From the IMG/VR virus record IMGVR_UViG_3300014970_000063: a DNA stretch of 3,997 nucleotides. The stretch is one strand, 5' to 3'. The position numbers were made by a program, and so were the translations under genes. Position 1 is the stretch's first letter; the number at the start of each line of letters is the position of its first letter. The notes beneath the pieces were generated by a model. The model searched no databases and was not told the DNA's origin. It saw only the letters and a list, made by a program, of their open reading frames with translations. Positions 1-3,997 of this stretch are shown here, piece after piece. Source of the DNA: a virus. Its lineage: Duplodnaviria; Heunggongvirae; Uroviricota; Caudoviricetes.

Positions 1-288
1 GCTATGGCTGCGCATTCGGGCCACCAGCAGAGGTGGCATTGCTTTTTCGATAGCTGGTAACAACGCCTGAATTTTTTTAACCGCATCAGGGGTGTCTTTC
101 TCCACCCAGCGGAAAATTTTCTGAGTATTGCGAGCCAGGGCTTCCGGATGGCTGTCGTCATACAGTTCCGGGAACGTCATTCCCAGCTCGAAATACGCTT
201 TGGTAATTTTCGCAGCCGGTACTTTTTCGCCGTCCGGATGCGCCCAGGCATTCATCGCCATGCGGATGTGTTCATGCTTGATTTTCAT
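1..288 (-). CDS. CII-like / YdaT-family prophage regulatory protein, partial (first 96 codons; 3' end lies beyond the window start)
   Basis: Minus-strand ATG at 288-286 opens a frame with no stop down to position 1, translating MKIKHEHIRMAMNAWAHPDGEKVPAAKITKAYFELGMTFPELYDDSHPEALARNTQKIFRWVEKDTPDAVKKIQALLPAIEKAMPPLLVARMRSHS. Its start overlaps the upstream Cro-like stop as ATGA (translational coupling). The N-terminus matches my recollection of Rac YdaT (MKIKHEHI...), and the position directly after a Cro-like gene is that of lambda cII / Rac ydaT. The plus-strand track ORFs 128..316 and 148..396 are its shadows. Confidence 0.7.
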   Translation of the reverse strand, partial: MKIKHEHIRMAMNAWAHPDGEKVPAAKITKAYFELGMTFPELYDDSHPEALARNTQKIFRWVEKDTPDAVKKIQALLPAIEKAMPPLLVARMRSHS

Positions 289-539
289 GAATCAACTCCC
301 ATCAGCTTTTTCGTAGTAGTTTTATTCCTGCCAATAGTTAAAATTGCATCGGCAGAAAATAATCCGTTTGATGCAAGAGCGATTTTTTCAGCGTAATTTG
401 TTTCGCCGGTATATTCTGTGCGAGGCAATTTTCCGTTATCCATCCATTTATAGATTGCTCTTTGGCTGACACCACAAACGTCGGCCACAACAGCAACGCG
501 AACGGTTTTGATTACATCTTCAAGTGTTTTCTGGTTCAT
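285..539 (-). CDS. Cro/YdaS/DicC-like small HTH regulator, 84 aa
   Basis: Internal Met 25 of track ORF 285..611(-) is preceded by a strong SD (minus strand GTGAGGGTGAT then ATG, plus coordinates 540-550). The product MNQKTLEDVIKTVRVAVVADVCGVSQRAIYKWMDNGKLPRTEYTGETNYAEKIALASNGLFSADAIL... has a helix-turn-helix and a P...TGET...IA pattern resembling DicC/YdaS-type Cro proteins. It is divergent from the repressor gene. The 24 codons upstream of Met 25 lie inside the promoter region and are taken as non-coding read-through. Confidence 0.8.
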   Translation of the reverse strand: MNQKTLEDVIKTVRVAVVADVCGVSQRAIYKWMDNGKLPRTEYTGETNYAEKIALASNGLFSADAILTIGRNKTTTKKLMGVDS

Positions 540-618
540 ATCACCCTCACAATGTGAACTTTGAGTACATGCTATAACAGAACTGACAGTACATTCAAGA
601 GCGAATATCATTGAACTT
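540..618. promoter_or_regulatory. Divergent promoter/operator region between the Cro-like and repressor genes (OR-like)
   Basis: 79-bp AT-rich intergenic region. It holds two copies of the 13-mer ACTnnnAGTACAT (558-570 and 582-594, cores 24 bp apart). Candidate rightward promoter: -35 CTGACA 583-588, 17-bp spacer, -10 TATCAT 606-611, with ATG at 619. Alternative rightward extended -10 TGcTATAAC 570-578. Candidate leftward promoter on the minus strand: -35 TTGAAT (plus 593-598) and extended -10 TGtTATAGC (plus 571-579). All promoter calls are by eye. Confidence 0.5.
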
Positions 619-1038
619 ATGGTTCATGAAGATAAAGCGCGTAAAGAGTTCGCCAGTAGGCTTGCGCTAGCCTGTGAAAACGCTGGTTATGAACAACATG
701 GAAGGCAGGCAGAAATTGCCCGTCGAATGAAATTAACACCAAAAGCGGTTAGCAAATGGTTTAATGGCGAAACAATTCCTCGCCGGGAGAAATTAAGGGA
801 ATTAGCAACACTAATAGGAACAACACCAACCTATCTTTTGGGAGAGGATACAGAAGAAAGTGGACAGGTACGTTTCTATCAGGAGTTAAATCCAAGACAA
901 AAAATCATCATTGACCTTCTGGACGAGCTCCCTGACAGTGAGACAGATGAACTTTTAAAAACTCTTGAAGAGAAAAAACAGAAGTACAATGCAATTTACG
1001 AAGAGTTAGCACGAAAGAAAAAACAAAAAGCCTCTTAA
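619..1038 (+). CDS. DicA/RacR-like XRE-family HTH repressor (prophage immunity repressor), 139 aa
   Basis: Contains a classic XRE helix-turn-helix (RQAEIARRMKLTPKAVSKWFNGETIPRREKLRELATLIGTTPTYLLGED). The C-terminal domain LNPRQKIIIDLLDELPDSETDELLKTLEEKKQKYNAIYEELARKKKQ parallels the DicA C-terminus as I recall it (LSPKELELLELFNALPESEQDTQLAEMRARVKNFNKLFEELLKARQ). No S24 peptidase domain is present. There is no SD before the ATG, which would fit a leaderless or near-leaderless mRNA. Confidence 0.85.
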   Translation: MVHEDKARKEFASRLALACENAGYEQHGRQAEIARRMKLTPKAVSKWFNGETIPRREKLRELATLIGTTPTYLLGEDTEESGQVRFYQELNPRQKIIIDLLDELPDSETDELLKTLEEKKQKYNAIYEELARKKKQKAS

Positions 1039-1101: not shown

Positions 1102-1160
1102 TTTACACACAAAATGTACTAAAAGTACTTTACAACAATGAACGCAAAGTACATTATATG
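1102..1160 (+). promoter_or_regulatory. Early-operon promoter with operator repeats downstream of the repressor gene (OL / PdicB-like)
   Basis: T-tract 1096-1104 (UP-element-like), -35 TTTACA 1129-1134, -10 candidates CATTAT 1152-1157 or TACATT 1150-1155. Operator-like motifs: ATGTACT 1114-1120 (inverted copy), AGTACTT 1124-1130 and AGTACAT 1148-1154, the last two with the same 24-bp core spacing seen at 564/588. Confidence 0.5.
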
Positions 1161-1335: not shown

Positions 1336-1491
1336 ATGGATACTATCGATCTTGGCAACAGCGAATCTCCGGTATGTGGCGTGTTCCCCAACCAGGACGG
1401 TACGTTCACCGCGATGACGTATACCAAAAGCAAAACGTTTAAAACCGAAAATGGTGCCCGTCGCTGGCTGGAAAGAAACTCAGGTGAGTGA
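1336..1491 (+). CDS. Small prophage protein, 51 aa, YdfA/YdaF-like by size and position
   Basis: ATG at 1336 is preceded by SD GAGG (1327-1330) at 5-nt spacing. Product MDTIDLGNSESPVCGVFPNQDGTFTAMTYTKSKTFKTENGARRWLERNSGE. A 51-aa first gene after the repressor matches Qin ydfA / Rac ydaF in my recollection (lengths recalled, not checked). The upstream in-frame ATG at 1255 (78-aa version) has rare AGG/GGA codons that read better as the SD itself. The stop overlaps the next start (TGAtATG). Confidence 0.6.
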   Translation: MDTIDLGNSESPVCGVFPNQDGTFTAMTYTKSKTFKTENGARRWLERNSGE

Positions 1492-1492
1492 T

Positions 1493-2068
1493 ATGGATTT
1501 CGACACAATCATGGAAAAGGCTTACGAAGAATACTTCGAAGGTCTTGCCGAAGGCGAAGAAGCTCTCAGCTTCAGTGAGTTTAAACAGGCACTCAGAATA
1601 AGAATGTGCTCTCACAATGACGCGGAGCACAAATATGAGAAGCAAAATCAGACCGCAGAAAATTTTGTTCTGGAACCCGGAGAAACGCTTTTCAAAATTC
1701 CCGTTACGTGCCCCATTTGCGGTTTTACATCAGAAGAACTTGACGACTCCTGTAACAATCAGGAAACAACCAAGTATGTCGAAGATGATACCGAGTGCGC
1801 ACTAAGAACGATTATATCCACGAGTCCAAACTCCAGGACCAATAAATCTCACTTTGAGAGGGTGATTAATCCACTCCCCCAAACCAATAAAAAAGATGCC
1901 GGAGGACAAAAAACCCAATGGAACAACGGGATATCTGTCAAAAAAAGACGTTCCATTAAAGACAAACAACGCAGCGCCAACAACTGTAAGCGCTTTATAC
2001 CAGCAATCAATTTTCATGTTCTTAAGCGGATTTATTGGTGGTTGCGACATTGCTTAATGAATCCTTAA
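1493..2068 (+). CDS. Hypothetical protein, 191 aa; acidic N-terminal half with a Cys cluster; 3' half of uncertain coding status
   Basis: ATG at 1493 with SD AGGTGA 7 nt upstream, tightly coupled to the preceding ORF. Codons 1-103 (1493-1801) have G at first codon position in 39 of 103 codons (coding-like) and carry CPICG...DDSC...DTEC. Codons 104-191 (1802-2065) drop to 12 of 88 G at first position, are K/N/Q/R-rich and use rare codons (AGA, AGG, ATA, CTA, CGA). No stop occurs before TAA at 2066-2068. Confidence 0.5.
   Translation: MDFDTIMEKAYEEYFEGLAEGEEALSFSEFKQALRIRMCSHNDAEHKYEKQNQTAENFVLEPGETLFKIPVTCPICGFTSEELDDSCNNQETTKYVEDDTECALRTIISTSPNSRTNKSHFERVINPLPQTNKKDAGGQKTQWNNGISVKKRRSIKDKQRSANNCKRFIPAINFHVLKRIYWWLRHCLMNP
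1802..2050 (-). CDS. Candidate small two-transmembrane-segment membrane protein, 82 aa (or 71 aa from the ATG at 2017); may instead be a shadow ORF
   Basis: The minus-strand ORF is exactly codon-aligned antisense to the 3' half of ORF 1493..2068. Its translation has two hydrophobic segments (WYKALTVVGAALFVFNGTSFF and VVPLGFLSSGIFFIGLGEWI) and G at first codon position in 22 of 82 codons. An AAGGA SD lies 11 nt upstream of the ATG at 2050, inside the inverted repeat 2061-2089. This is a position-analogous ORF to Rac sieB, which I recall as being on the opposite strand; no homology is claimed. Confidence 0.3.
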   Translation of the reverse strand: MSQPPINPLKNMKIDCWYKALTVVGAALFVFNGTSFFDRYPVVPLGFLSSGIFFIGLGEWINHPLKVRFIGPGVWTRGYNRS

Positions 2069-2089
2069 AACTGTGGTGATTTTAAGGAT
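2061..2089. repeat. Perfect 10-bp inverted repeat ATCCTTAAAA-N9-TTTTAAGGAT
   Basis: Read directly from the sequence. It covers the stop codon (2066-2068) of the plus ORF and, on the minus strand, the SD of ORF 1802..2050. No U-tract follows on either strand, so it is not a classical intrinsic terminator. Confidence 0.6.
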
Positions 2090-2129
2090 ACCACCTCGCC
2101 TGACGTGGTTAAAAGCAGGCACACAACAC

Positions 2130-2195
2130 GAAAGCGCACGGCGAAGTTCGTCTCACTGTACGGTGTCGTTAAATTTAATTCGACCGTGCGCTTCC
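2130..2195 (+). other. Long interrupted hairpin (AAGCGCACGG 2132-2141 pairs with CCGTGCGCTT 2184-2193, plus 4 more bp after a 1-nt bulge); candidate RNA processing or structural element
   Basis: 10-bp perfect complementarity plus the flanking CGAA/TTCG pairs, read from the sequence. It lies in a GC-rich segment without convincing ATG-initiated ORFs; the track ORFs 2073..2258 and 2105..2296 start at GTG and are rich in rare codons. Confidence 0.45.
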
Positions 2196-2327
2196 GGTTG
2201 TGGCAACCCGCGAAATGGCGCGGCGGTAAGTATGGCGGGGTTATTCCTTCCCCGTTGAGGACACCGAGTTGTCAGGTTGACCATACGCTTAAGTGACAAC
2301 CCCGCTGCAACGCCCTCTGTTATCAAT

Positions 2328-2385
2328 TTTCTGGTGACGTTTGGCGGTATCAGTTTTACTCCGTGACTGCTCTGCCGCCGTTTTT
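2328..2385 (+). ncRNA. dicF: DicF-like small RNA (prophage-encoded ftsZ antisense sRNA family), about 53 nt plus U-tail
   Basis: TTTCTGGTGACGTTTGGCGGTATCAGTTTTACTCCGTGACTGCTCTGCCGCC(G)TTTTT matches my recollection of E. coli Qin DicF almost base for base, including the GGCGG/CCGCC terminator stem. The genomic context (DicA-like repressor, then YdfA-like ORF, then this sRNA) matches the Qin dicB operon order as recalled. Not confirmed by any search. Confidence 0.7.
2343..2385 (+). terminator. Rho-independent terminator (3' end of the DicF-like sRNA)
   Basis: Stem GGCGGTA (2343-2349) pairs with TGCCGCC (2373-2379), with an inner CAGT/ACTG helix (2351-2354 with 2366-2369), followed by G and TTTTT (2381-2385). 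Confidence 0.65.
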
Positions 2386-2454
2386 AAAGTGAATTTTGTG
2401 ATGCGGTGAATGCGGCTAAGCGCACGCGGAACAGTTAAAACCAAAAACAGTGTT

Positions 2455-2682
2455 ATGGGTGGATTCTCTGTATCCGAAGAGCAGTTAATTGCGCTGAAAG
2501 GAATAAAAAAAGGTACGTTAAAAAAGGTCCGGGAAAAATCGTTTATGGAAGGAAGGGAATATAAGCATGTCGCTCATGACGGTATGCCATGGGATAACAG
2601 TCCATGCTTTTACAACCTGGAAGAAATTGATCGCTGGATTGAGCGCCAGGCATCAGCAAGACCAAGACGTCATCTTACTTGA
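2455..2682 (+). CDS. xis: Excisionase-like protein (lambda Xis-type), 75 aa from the ATG at 2455; the maximal ORF starts at 2410 (90 aa)
   Basis: Sits immediately upstream of and co-oriented with the integrase gene. The core KGTLKKVREKSFMEGREYKHVAHDG resembles the lambda Xis region SLETVRRWVRECRIFPPPVKDGREYLFHES as recalled (shared GREY motif). Neither candidate start has a good SD. The ATG at 2410 lies inside tandem repeats that may be promoter elements, so 2455 is preferred. Confidence 0.6.
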   Translation: MGGFSVSEEQLIALKGIKKGTLKKVREKSFMEGREYKHVAHDGMPWDNSPCFYNLEEIDRWIERQASARPRRHLT

Positions 2683-2716
2683 CTAAAAGCCACACTAACT
2701 AATGAGAGAAGTTGAA

Positions 2717-3997
2717 ATGAAATATCCGACAGGCGTGGAAAACCATGGAGGGAAATTACGTATCTGGTTTGTTTATAAAGGCGTAAGAGTCAGGGAAAAT
2801 CTGGGGGTTCCTGACACAGCAAAAAACAGGCGCGTTGCAGGTGAACTACGCGCCTCTGTTTGTTACGCAATAAAAACTGGTGTTTTCGACTATGCAAAAC
2901 AGTTTCCCTCCTCACGCAATCTGGAAAAATTTGGTGAGGCCCGACAAGATTTAACCATAAAAGAACTGGCTGAAAAATTTCTGGCACTGAAAGAAACTGA
3001 AGTCGCCAAAACATCACTCAACACATACCGTGCCGTCATCAAAAATATCCTGAGCATAATCGGTGAAAAAAATCTTGCCTCATCGATTAATAAAGAAAAA
3101 TTACTGGAGGTTCGTAAAGAGCTACTGACTGGATACCAGATCCCCAAAAGTAACTATATTGTTACACAACCAGGGAGATCGGCTGTAACTGTAAATAATT
3201 ACATGACAAATCTTAACGCCGTGTTCCAGTTTGGTGTTGATAACGGTTACCTGGCAGATAACCCGTTTAAGGGGATCTCGCCATTAAAGGAATCAAGAAC
3301 CATTCCGGATCCTCTTTCGCGGGAGGAATTCATCCGTCTTATCGATGCGTGCAGAAATCAGCAAGCCAAAAATTTATGGTGTGTTTCTGTTTATACTGGC
3401 GTTCGCCCTGGTGAGCTGTGTGCACTTGGATGGGAGGACATAGATCTGAAAAATAGAACAATGATGATCAGGAGAAATTTAGCAAAAGACCGTTTCACGG
3501 TCCCAAAAACACAGGCGGGAACCAATCGGGTCATTCATCTTATTAAGCCAGCAATCGACGCTCTCCGGAGTCAGATGACATTAACGAGACTGAGCAAAGA
3601 GCATATCATTGATGTTCACCTCAGAGAGTATGGCAGAACAGAAAAACATAAATGCACCTTTGTTTTTCAACCTGAAGTGTCAGCGAGAGTAAAAAATTAT
3701 GGTGACCATTTTACCGTTGACTCAATAAGGCAGATGTGGGACGCAGCGATAAAACGTGCCGGACTCCGCCATCGAAAATCATATCAGTCGAGACATACTT
3801 ATGCCTGCTGGTCGCTGACAGCTGGTGCTAACCCGGCATTTATAGCAAACCAGATGGGCCATGCAGATGCGCAAATGGTATTTCAGGTATACGGAAAATG
3901 GATGTCTGAAAACAATAATGCACAGGTAGCTTTGTTAAATACACAGTTAAGCGAGTTTGCCCCAACCATGCCCCATAACGAAGCAATGAAAAATTAA
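2717..3997 (+). CDS. int: Tyrosine recombinase / phage integrase, IntR (Rac)-like, 426 aa
   Basis: Translation from the ATG at 2717 (MKYPTGVENHGGKLRIWFVYKGVRVRENLG...) parallels Rac IntR as recalled (MSKLPTGVEIRGRYIRIWF...). Catalytic signatures are present: box I TGVRPGELCALGWEDIDL, box II SRHTYACWSLTAGANPAFIANQMGH, and the tyrosine in QVYGKW. A purine-rich GAGAGAAG precedes the ATG at 2717. The track start at 2702 adds five residues with no SD. The gene ends at the last base of the window, so the attachment site is expected just beyond it. Confidence 0.92.
   Translation: MKYPTGVENHGGKLRIWFVYKGVRVRENLGVPDTAKNRRVAGELRASVCYAIKTGVFDYAKQFPSSRNLEKFGEARQDLTIKELAEKFLALKETEVAKTSLNTYRAVIKNILSIIGEKNLASSINKEKLLEVRKELLTGYQIPKSNYIVTQPGRSAVTVNNYMTNLNAVFQFGVDNGYLADNPFKGISPLKESRTIPDPLSREEFIRLIDACRNQQAKNLWCVSVYTGVRPGELCALGWEDIDLKNRTMMIRRNLAKDRFTVPKTQAGTNRVIHLIKPAIDALRSQMTLTRLSKEHIIDVHLREYGRTEKHKCTFVFQPEVSARVKNYGDHFTVDSIRQMWDAAIKRAGLRHRKSYQSRHTYACWSLTAGANPAFIANQMGHADAQMVFQVYGKWMSENNNAQVALLNTQLSEFAPTMPHNEAMKN

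What the first reader, a model, noticed from the sequence alone, without database searches (positions are those of the whole stretch)
2328..2385. DicF-like sRNA placed directly upstream of xis-int, with no dicB
The sequence matches the DicF sRNA as I recall it, and the upstream gene order mirrors the Qin dicB operon. Here, however, the sRNA is followed by the excisionase and integrase genes rather than the DicB division inhibitor. That would make the sRNA the last element of the repressor-controlled early operon, expressed on derepression and able to act on host ftsZ in trans.
Basis: partly seen in the sequence, partly recalled or inferred. Interest (0 to 1): 0.55.

Follow-up and report, generated by a model that had tools for sequence, protein, structure and literature searches.

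The report
DicF sRNA in dicB-deleted Qin prophage
This is an ordinary copy of the well-known E. coli prophage small RNA DicF. It sits next to the excisionase and integrase genes only because a deletion in a decaying Qin-type prophage removed dicB and its neighbours, not because the phage is organised differently.

Summary
Window 2328-2380 is DicF (Rfam RF00039, 72.5 bits against a gathering score of 48, E 3e-15). It matches K-12 dicF at 52 of 53 bases and keeps the terminator hairpin and U-tract. No dicB is present.

The layout is a deletion scar, not a design. The nearest complete genomes (E. coli ET896 and LR-27) match both flanks at about 99.9% but carry 1,080 extra bases between them: dicB, a ydfD remnant, an exonuclease remnant and the first xis codons. 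Intact phages such as Tritos read ydfA-ydfB-ydfC-dicF-dicB-ydfD-exo-xis-int.

The junction lies in a 7-bp microhomology (GTATCCG, 2470-2476). It fuses dicF-dicB spacer sequence in frame to xis, which loses its first 8-13 codons, depending on which start codon is used.

The same junction occurs in E. coli draft genomes and metagenomes at the Qin site beside rspB, on at least three upstream backgrounds. It occurs in none of 5,426 complete genomes and in no phage record.

An engineered K-12 dicF+ ΔdicB operon was only mildly toxic and did not cause filaments. This allele is therefore best read as a detoxified remnant that can still make DicF. Known sRNA, low interest.

The parts
1..288 (-). 5' part (96 codons) of a YdaT-family gene, in the position of lambda cII. 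It runs off the left end of the window.
   Evidence: Pfam PF06254 YdaT_toxin, E 2.3e-9. Annotated as 'toxin YdaT family protein' in ET896.
285..539 (-). Cro-position helix-turn-helix regulator (84 aa, annotated as AlpA family). It is unrelated in sequence to K-12 DicC.
   Evidence: Annotation in ET896. Pfam HTH_17 and phrog_35. No BLASTP alignment to DicC.
556..611 (.). Divergent control region. It holds two operator-like repeats (GAACTNNNAGTACAT at 556-570 and 580-594) and a promoter-like site (CTGACA-17-TATCAT, 583-611) facing the repressor gene.
   Evidence: These are consensus matches only; function is inferred.
619..1038 (+). DicA/cI-type repressor (139 aa). It is heteroimmune to K-12 DicA (29% identity, same architecture).
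   Evidence: Pfam HTH_3. BLASTP to DicA, E 5e-15, 29% identity.
1113..1157 (+). Putative repressor-controlled early-left promoter, the analogue of dicBp / lambda PL. It reads TTTACA-17-CATTAT (1129-1157) and is overlapped by operator-like repeats AAAGTACWTT (1113-1132, 1137-1156).
   Evidence: The same AGTACAT motif appears in the cro/repressor intergenic region. The role is inferred from DicA repression of dicBp in K-12 (bioRxiv 10.1101/708461).
1336..1491 (+). ydfA (DUF1391), the first gene of the operon.
   Evidence: Pfam PF07151, E 2.1e-26. Annotated ydfA in ET896.
1493..2068 (+). ydfB' (the first 34 codons, 1493-1594) running on into a 191-aa ORF. This ORF replaces the ydfB 3' end and ydfC of K-12-type Qin.
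   Evidence: PGAP annotates ydfB as a partial gene in ET896. phrog_35040 matches over its full length at 462 bits. Window 1591-2110 has no homology to the K-12-type loci.
2111..2327 (+). Conserved untranslated leader upstream of dicF. It includes the sequence around the RNase E-generated 5' end.
   Evidence: About 98% identical to K-12-type loci from about 2180 onward. The 48 nt before dicF are identical to K-12. The 'long untranslated region containing dicF' is described in PMC5069750.
2328..2385 (+). DicF sRNA: the 53-nt body at 2328-2380, the terminator hairpin at 2343-2379 and the U-tract at 2381-2385.
   Evidence: Rfam RF00039, 72.5 bits, E 3e-15. 52/53 identical to K-12. Fold.
2386..2476 (+). 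Retained proximal part of the dicF-dicB spacer. It still covers the 3' end of the 72-nt RNase III form, at about 2399.
   Evidence: Identical to ET896, with two SNPs relative to K-12. The 72-nt form is described in PMC5069750.
2470..2476 (.). Deletion junction, the 7-bp microhomology GTATCCG. To its left is dicF-dicB spacer; to its right is xis from the VSEEQ codons onward.
   Evidence: The exact junction was found in L004 and L015-L020.
2410..2682 (+). xis' fusion ORF: 90 aa from ATG 2410, or 75 aa from ATG 2455. Spacer-derived codons replace the native N-terminus (MSEVIMIVSPGKW).
   Evidence: Alignment with native Xis of ET896, Tritos and mEp460. Pfam DUF1233 matches profile positions 10-69 only, at 92 bits against 106.5 for the native protein. 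The same fusion proteins are in public collections (P0039, P0053, P0054).
2717..3997 (+). Intact tyrosine integrase (426 aa). The window ends at its stop codon.
   Evidence: Pfam Arm-DNA-bind_2 and Phage_integrase. The 2470-3997 stretch that contains it is 99.5% identical in DNA to phage mEp460_ev081. In relatives it is followed by rspB, the Qin attachment side.

Best explanation
The window is the immunity and early-left region of a Qin-type cryptic lambdoid prophage of E. coli. In relatives with the same sequence, this prophage is integrated next to rspB. It carries a bona fide dicF gene.

The ancestral operon order was repressor-controlled promoter, ydfA, ydfB, ydfC, long leader, dicF, dicB, ydfD, exonuclease, xis, int. 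An illegitimate deletion occurred between the dicF-dicB spacer and the start of xis, at the microhomology GTATCCG. It removed dicB, ydfD and the exonuclease (or their remnants). It fused spacer codons in frame to xis, which lost its first 8-13 codons depending on the start codon used.

How it most likely works, by inference from K-12: the DicA-like repressor keeps the promoter upstream of ydfA off. When transcription does occur, RNase E creates the DicF 5' end and the intrinsic terminator creates the 3' end. The Hfq-bound sRNA then pairs with ftsZ, pykA, xylR and manX mRNAs exactly as K-12 DicF does. Transcripts that read through the terminator now enter xis'-int directly.

DicB, the main toxic product and the MinC/ZipA- and ManYZ-acting protein, is gone, and so is YdfD. 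Derepression should therefore be far less harmful than in K-12 and probably would not cause filaments. The prophage should also have lost DicB-dependent exclusion of lambda-type phages.
For: Identity of DicF.

Deletion origin: ET896 and LR-27 cover 100% of the window in two pieces that span 5,077 bp. In ET896, the 1,080 extra bases hold dicB, ydfD', an exonuclease remnant and the xis start.

Intact order: seen in the sequenced phages Tritos and mEp460_ev081 and in E. coli strain 165.

Usual pairing: dicF and dicB are contiguous in 3,927 of 4,637 complete E. coli genomes with a hit, and in 20 of 39 phage records.

Rarity of the junction: it is absent from all 5,426 complete genomes, and no phage record covers 80% or more of the window.

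The junction is real: it is found in a metagenome contig. Of the contigs that encode the same fusion Xis, 24 were read and 6 places were shown, including four NCBI E. coli assemblies. In all 6 shown loci the exact junction was verified, no dicB was found by blastn, and the locus lies next to rspB-rspA-ynfA.

Xis truncation.

Functional inference: in K-12, an inducible dicBF operon lacking dicB (F+B-) was largely relieved of growth inhibition and its cells were not filamentous. DicF uses its 3' region for ftsZ and pykA and its 5' end for xylR. Its biogenesis involves RNase E and termination (PMC5069750). DicA represses dicBp, and DicB gives ManYZ-dependent phage resistance (bioRxiv 10.1101/708461).
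Against: No expression data exist for this allele. The promoter and operators are consensus-level predictions only; the number of promoter-like sites in the window does not exceed that in shuffled sequence. The repressor is only 29% identical to DicA, so its regulation is inferred by position. It is unknown whether the fused Xis is translated or active. The host genome is unknown and may carry other dicF/dicB copies; complete E. coli genomes with a match have a median of 2 matching places. Whether the junction arose once or repeatedly is unresolved.
Confidence: 0.88

Rival explanations
1. One reading: a distinct lambdoid architecture in which DicF is the designed terminal, host-directed element of the early operon, placed directly before a functional xis-int module, with the sRNA alone blocking division.
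For: DicF, a repressor and xis-int are all on one strand with nothing between them. The integrase is intact. The junction is in frame and leaves an ATG-initiated Xis ORF. The allele recurs on several backgrounds.
Against: The Xis N-terminus is replaced by non-coding spacer sequence, and Pfam profile positions 1-9 are lost. Every junction-bearing locus is a cryptic Qin remnant at rspB. All sequenced phages with this xis-int or this dicF keep dicB or kil plus the exonuclease in between. The nearest genome differs only by the 1,080-bp segment, which is flanked by microhomology. In K-12, DicF in the operon context without DicB does not cause filaments.
Confidence: 0.04
2. Assembly or sequence-construction artefact: the window is a chimera of two Qin segments.
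For: No complete E. coli genome has the junction. The window's exact fusion protein was not found by the look-up of encoding contigs. Short-read contigs break exactly at 2470 in one sample (L013).
Against: The identical junction was verified in one metagenome contig and in the 6 loci shown out of 24 contigs read. Those loci include four NCBI assemblies from different projects, with contigs of up to about 280 kb. The window's exact 90-aa product is on record from a JGI/IMG contig.
Confidence: 0.02
3. Silent relic: the dicF copy is intact only because the deletion is recent. It is never expressed at meaningful levels and has no role beyond acting, at most, as a transcription terminator in front of xis'-int.
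For: The natural inducing conditions of the dicBF operon are unknown even in K-12. The repressor gene is intact. The allele is rare, at 0 of 5,426 complete genomes. DicF is also a Rho-independent terminator.
Against: dicF is 52/53 identical to K-12, and the same 52 bases are exact in all junction-bearing haplotypes. Its leader and terminator are intact. The literature reports DicF accumulation under low oxygen in K-12 and EHEC.
Confidence: 0.2

Closest known systems
dicF of the Qin cryptic prophage, E. coli K-12 (dicBF operon: ydfA-ydfB-ydfC-dicF-dicB-ydfD)
   Same: 52/53 bases of the sRNA are identical. The 48-nt upstream flank, the terminator and the U-tract are the same. It sits in the same position downstream of a repressor / cro pair and ydfA-ydfB. 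Relatives occupy the same chromosomal site next to rspB.
   Different: dicB, ydfD and the exonuclease (ydfE) region are absent. ydfC is replaced by an unrelated 516-bp segment. The repressor is only 29% identical to DicA and the cro-like gene is unrelated to DicC. The integrase is intact here but is a pseudogene (intQ) in K-12. xis is a 5'-truncated fusion.
Engineered K-12 strain Plac-dicBF ΔdicB ('F+B-'; Balasubramanian et al. 2016, PMC5069750)
   Same: The operon retains dicF but lacks dicB. It is therefore the closest experimental model for what this allele does when transcribed.
   Different: The laboratory construct keeps ydfD and leaves an FRT scar, and it is driven by Plac. The natural allele also lacks ydfD and the exonuclease, and it places xis'-int directly downstream.
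Intact temperate phages of the same lineage (Escherichia phage Tritos OV696610; mEp460_ev081 LR597641)
   Same: Tritos shares the immunity genes, ydfA, the ydfB start and dicF at 97.8% identity. mEp460_ev081 shares xis-int at 99.5% identity. Gene order and strand are the same.
   Different: Both phages have dicB, ydfD and a 2.5-kb exonuclease VIII gene between dicF and a full-length xis.
DicF-kil modules (phage Evi, Shigella phage 75/02 Stx, Rac-like prophages)
   Same: A DicF-family RNA lies in the early-left operon upstream of recombination and integration genes. In the Rac-like E. coli prophage L010 the Rfam hit reaches 56.2 bits, above the gathering score.
   Different: In those phages DicF is followed by another protein division inhibitor (Kil). 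In the window no protein inhibitor follows at all.

Membership tests
DicF sRNA (Rfam RF00039) | Match to the family covariance model above the curated gathering score, over the full length | tested here: met
   72.5 bits against a gathering score of 48, E 3e-15, model positions 1-52 of 52.
DicF sRNA (Rfam RF00039) | Sequence identity to the experimentally characterised K-12 dicF, including the 5' (xylR) and 3' (ftsZ, pykA) pairing regions | tested here: met
   52/53 identical; the only change is the last base, C to G. The predicted duplex with the K-12 ftsZ leader is the same as for K-12 DicF (-38.9 against -38.5 kcal/mol). The pairing regions are taken from PMC5069750.
DicF sRNA (Rfam RF00039) | 3' Rho-independent terminator hairpin followed by a U-run | tested here: met
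   Hairpin at 2343-2379 with a free energy of -16.6 kcal/mol, then TTTTT at 2381-2385.
DicF sRNA (Rfam RF00039) | A discrete 53/72-nt RNA made by RNase E / RNase III processing, Hfq binding, and repression of ftsZ translation | not testable with these tools
   This needs a Northern blot or RNA-seq plus reporter assays in a carrier strain.
dicBF operon of Qin-type prophages | Divergent cro-like and repressor genes, followed by ydfA-ydfB-ydfC upstream of dicF on the repressor's strand | tested here: met
   The repressor, cro-like gene, ydfA and ydfB' are present in order. The exception is ydfC, which is replaced.
dicBF operon of Qin-type prophages | dicB (62-aa division inhibitor) and ydfD immediately downstream of dicF | tested here: not met
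   There is no DicB match by tblastn. The 1,080 bp that hold dicB and ydfD' in ET896 are missing.
dicBF operon of Qin-type prophages | Integration at the Qin site beside rspB/ynfP | tested here: inconclusive
   The window ends at the integrase stop codon. Contigs with the identical integrase, and all junction-bearing loci, continue into rspB-rspA-ynfA.
DUF1233 excisionase (PF06806) | Full-length domain, profile positions 1-69 | tested here: not met
   Only profile positions 10-69 match. The score falls from 106.5 bits for the native protein to 92 bits, and the N-terminus is replaced by spacer-derived residues.
Tyrosine integrase (lambda Int type) | Arm-binding domain plus an intact catalytic domain | tested here: met
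   PF12167 and PF00589 match over a 426-aa uninterrupted ORF. The 2470-3997 stretch that contains it is 99.5% identical in DNA to phage mEp460_ev081.

The most novel reading that the evidence does not exclude
The dicF-xis' junction may not be a one-off scar. It could be a recurrent deletion, possibly selected. It lies in an imperfect ~22-nt homology (GTATCCG..GC.GTTAATTG). It is found on at least three Qin backgrounds. In the window, the nearest SNPs on both sides match a non-deleted genome (ET896) rather than the other deleted ones. An unrelated larger deletion also ends at the same xis nucleotide. If the deletion arose repeatedly and was retained, it would be a reproducible 'domestication' step. 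That step would strip the toxic proteins DicB and YdfD from Qin while keeping the DicF regulator, and would place xis'-int directly behind the DicF terminator.
Probability: 0.15. Interest if true: 0.35.

Novelty: already known. Interest (0 to 1): 0.15.

Why it matters
It matters little for discovery. DicF, its targets and its prophage context have been characterised since 1989-2016, and this copy is nearly identical to the K-12 gene.

The modest value is as a natural counterpart of the laboratory dicF+ ΔdicB strain. Carrier isolates could show what DicF does alone at native expression levels. They could also show whether losing DicB costs the host its ManYZ-dependent phage exclusion, and how cryptic prophages shed toxic genes while keeping regulatory RNAs.

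There is also a practical warning. Gene adjacency in a short window of a decaying prophage should not be read as operon design without comparison to intact relatives.

Tried and rejected
Searches that found nothing:
- Exact-junction scans of genome contigs (one genome per species) and of viral contigs gave 0 hits. This says little for E. coli strain-level variants.
- The look-up of encoding contigs with the window's own 75-aa and 90-aa Xis products, and with P0054, found nothing. The allele surfaced only through the exact-sequence cluster look-up and the Ala variant P0053.
- Faubladier & Bouché 1994 (PMC205167) is not held in the library, so no statement about its content is relied on.
- Pfam and PHROG searches of the minus-strand ORF 1802-2050 gave nothing.

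Tests that were not informative:
- The RNAduplex score of DicF against the ftsZ leader was not discriminating against mononucleotide shuffles (-38.9 against a mean of -32.2, sd 4.2). The ftsZ argument therefore rests on identity to K-12 DicF, not on energy.
- Folding the 366-nt leader plus spacer gave z = -1.67, which is not significant. No further Rfam family was found in the window.
- The promoter and terminator consensus scans found no more sites than in shuffled sequence. The promoter call is therefore positional inference only.

Readings considered and rejected:
- A designed DicF-terminal operon.
- An assembly chimera.
Both are covered under the rival explanations.

Full report
**1. Observation**

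A scan of the whole window against Rfam 15 gives one significant hit. It is DicF (RF00039) at 2329-2380 on the + strand, over the full model, at 72.5 bits against a gathering score of 48, with E 3e-15. Everything else has E>2.

I aligned the window with the K-12 MG1655 Qin region, where dicF is annotated at 1649382-1649434. That places the 53-nt K-12 gene on window 2328-2380. There is a single difference, at the last base (C to G at 2380). The 48 nt upstream are identical, and the same TTTTT tail follows at 2381-2385.

The RNA folds into the expected terminator hairpin at 2343-2379, with a free energy of -16.6 kcal/mol.

dicB is truly absent. tblastn with K-12 DicB finds nothing better than a 6-residue match at E 0.22. 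The next genes downstream are a DUF1233 excisionase ORF and a 426-aa integrase.

**2. What surrounds it**

The window reads as the immunity and early-left region of a lambdoid prophage, in this order:
- a ydaT-family gene (1-288, minus strand);
- a cro-position helix-turn-helix gene (285-539, minus strand);
- a DicA/cI-type repressor (619-1038);
- ydfA (1336-1491, DUF1391);
- the first 34 codons of ydfB (1493-1594);
- a 516-bp replacement segment;
- the conserved untranslated leader;
- dicF;
- xis';
- int.

The repressor is only 29% identical to DicA, and the cro-like gene is unrelated to DicC. This is therefore a heteroimmune relative of K-12 Qin.

AGTACAT-type repeats occur in both intergenic regions. 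Those upstream of ydfA overlap a TTTACA-17-CATTAT site. That is the pattern expected for OR/OL-like operators, but these are consensus matches only.

**3. Why DicF abuts xis-int**

Megablast against 5,426 complete E. coli genomes finds two genomes, ET896 and LR-27, that cover the whole window at about 100% identity. They do so in two pieces that span 5,077 bp rather than 3,997 bp.

In ET896 the extra 1,080 bp contain dicB, a truncated ydfD, a 3' remnant of the exonuclease gene and the first codons of xis. Base-by-base comparison shows one mismatch on each side. The two matching stretches overlap by 7 bp, GTATCCG, at window 2470-2476.

The sequenced phages Tritos and mEp460_ev081, and ordinary prophages such as the one in E. 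coli strain 165, show the undamaged order. In Tritos and strain 165 it reads repressor, ydfA, ydfB, ydfC, dicF, dicB, ydfD, a 2.5-kb exonuclease VIII gene, xis, int, all on one strand. mEp460_ev081 has the same dicB to int part behind different upstream genes.

The window is therefore a deletion derivative. The deletion also damaged xis. The native N-terminus MSEVIMIVSPGKW is replaced by residues translated from the dicF-dicB spacer (MGGFS, or MRLSARGTVKTKNSVMGGFS). The Pfam DUF1233 match loses profile positions 1-9.

**4. Is the junction real?**

None of the complete genomes spans the junction, and no phage record covers 80% or more of the window. The junction is nevertheless natural.

The 25-mer across it occurs in a metagenome contig. 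The fused Xis proteins are in the 15-billion-sequence collection. The Ala variant is on 33 contigs as the 75-aa form and 44 contigs as the 90-aa form, under NCBI accessions annotated 'excisionase family protein [Escherichia coli]'. The window's exact 90-aa product is on one 9,929-bp JGI/IMG contig.

For the 90-aa Ala variant, 24 encoding contigs were read and 6 places were shown. The six retrieved loci include four NCBI E. coli assemblies. Each of the six carries the same 52 DicF bases, the exact junction and no dicB by blastn. Each is followed by int, rspB, rspA and ynfA, which is the Qin site.

The junction sits on three different upstream backgrounds:
- a K-12-like immunity region with intact ydfB and ydfC;
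- a heavily deleted form;
- the window's heteroimmune form.

The SNPs nearest the junction in the window match the non-deleted ET896 on both sides, rather than the other deleted loci. A separate, larger deletion (L021) ends at the same xis nucleotide. I could not resolve whether this reflects recurrence at a hot spot or one event spread by recombination.

**5. How typical is DicF without DicB?**

dicF and dicB are contiguous in 3,927 of the 4,637 complete genomes that have any match, and in 20 of 39 phage records. Where dicB does not follow directly, I found two other arrangements:
- the FtsZ inhibitor kil follows instead (E. coli CFS3292, phage Evi, Shigella phage 75/02 Stx);
- an isrK + C4 RNA + rha module is inserted ahead of dicB.

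In the undamaged elements examined here, DicF is thus followed by a protein division inhibitor (dicB or kil). The window has none, which again points to decay.

**6. Mechanism (inferred from K-12 work)**

DicA represses the dicBF promoter, which resembles lambda PL (bioRxiv 10.1101/708461). RNase E makes the DicF 5' end. The 3' end comes either from Rho-independent termination (53 nt) or from RNase III cleavage of read-through RNA (72 nt). DicF binds Hfq. It pairs with ftsZ and pykA through its 3' part and with xylR through its 5' end (PMC5069750). It also represses manXYZ.

All of these sequence determinants are intact here. If the operon is transcribed, the same sRNA should be made and should act on the same targets.

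The K-12 experiment most relevant to this allele used an inducible operon with dicF but without dicB. It 'largely relieved growth inhibition', and the cells 'were not filamentous'. The deletion also removes DicB-dependent, ManYZ-mediated resistance to lambda-type phages.

The likely net effect is a detoxified remnant that still encodes the regulator. Read-through from the DicF terminator now runs straight into xis'-int.

**7. Verdict**

The sRNA identity, the operon context and the capacity to act in trans hold. The idea of a distinct architecture with DicF as the designed terminal element, sufficient on its own for filamentation, does not hold.

DicF is a known sRNA, and this is a near-identical copy in a rare deletion allele of a known cryptic prophage. 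Novelty: already known. Interest: low.

The only mildly interesting residue is the possibility that the same deletion recurs or is selected.

Noticed in passing
window 1493-2068 (+) and 1802-2050 (-): The first 34 codons of ydfB continue into a 191-aa ORF that matches phrog_35040 over its full length (462 bits). This ORF replaces the ydfB 3' end and ydfC of K-12-type Qin. PGAP leaves the region unannotated in ET896. An overlapping minus-strand 82-aa hydrophobic ORF has no Pfam or PHROG hit. Which strand codes, if either, is unknown.
   Followed up: partly
window 556-594 and 1113-1157: Operator-like repeats (GAACTNNNAGTACAT and AAAGTACWTT) occur in both the cro/repressor and the repressor/ydfA intergenic regions. 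The second set overlaps a TTTACA-17-CATTAT promoter-like site, an OR/OL-like layout for this heteroimmune repressor.
   Followed up: partly
window 2470-2472; L021 5070-5075: A second, independent Qin deletion (Xis fusion protein P0003, found on 6 contigs) has its right end at the same xis nucleotide (GTA microhomology). Its left end lies about 4.7 kb further upstream, so it removes the whole immunity region and dicF. Several other xis 5' fusions with nearby breakpoints exist (P0007, P0008, P0014, P0017, P0038). This may be a deletion hot spot.
   Followed up: partly
window 2380-2528 compared with L001, L015, L019: The SNPs flanking the junction (G2380, C2404, A2418 and T2528) match the non-deleted genome ET896. 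All other junction-bearing loci have C at 2528. This suggests either recurrent deletion or very short-patch recombination.
   Followed up: partly
L009 4545-5024; L010 4490-4541; L024; L025: DicF-family RNAs occur upstream of kil instead of dicB in Rac-like and Stx phages. In one E. coli prophage, isrK and C4 antisense RNAs plus an rha gene are inserted between dicF and dicB.
   Followed up: partly
window 2105-2293 (+): A 63-aa ORF inside the 'untranslated' leader upstream of dicF matches phrog_8854 (96.8 bits). Some phage annotations therefore call a gene there, while K-12 and PGAP do not. The leader is highly conserved, but its predicted fold is not significantly stable (z = -1.67).
   Followed up: no
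L013 position 1 (= window 2470): A short-read metagenome contig that carries the identical integrase begins exactly at the junction nucleotide. This is consistent with an assembly-graph branch point there, meaning several upstream contexts in one sample.
   Followed up: no
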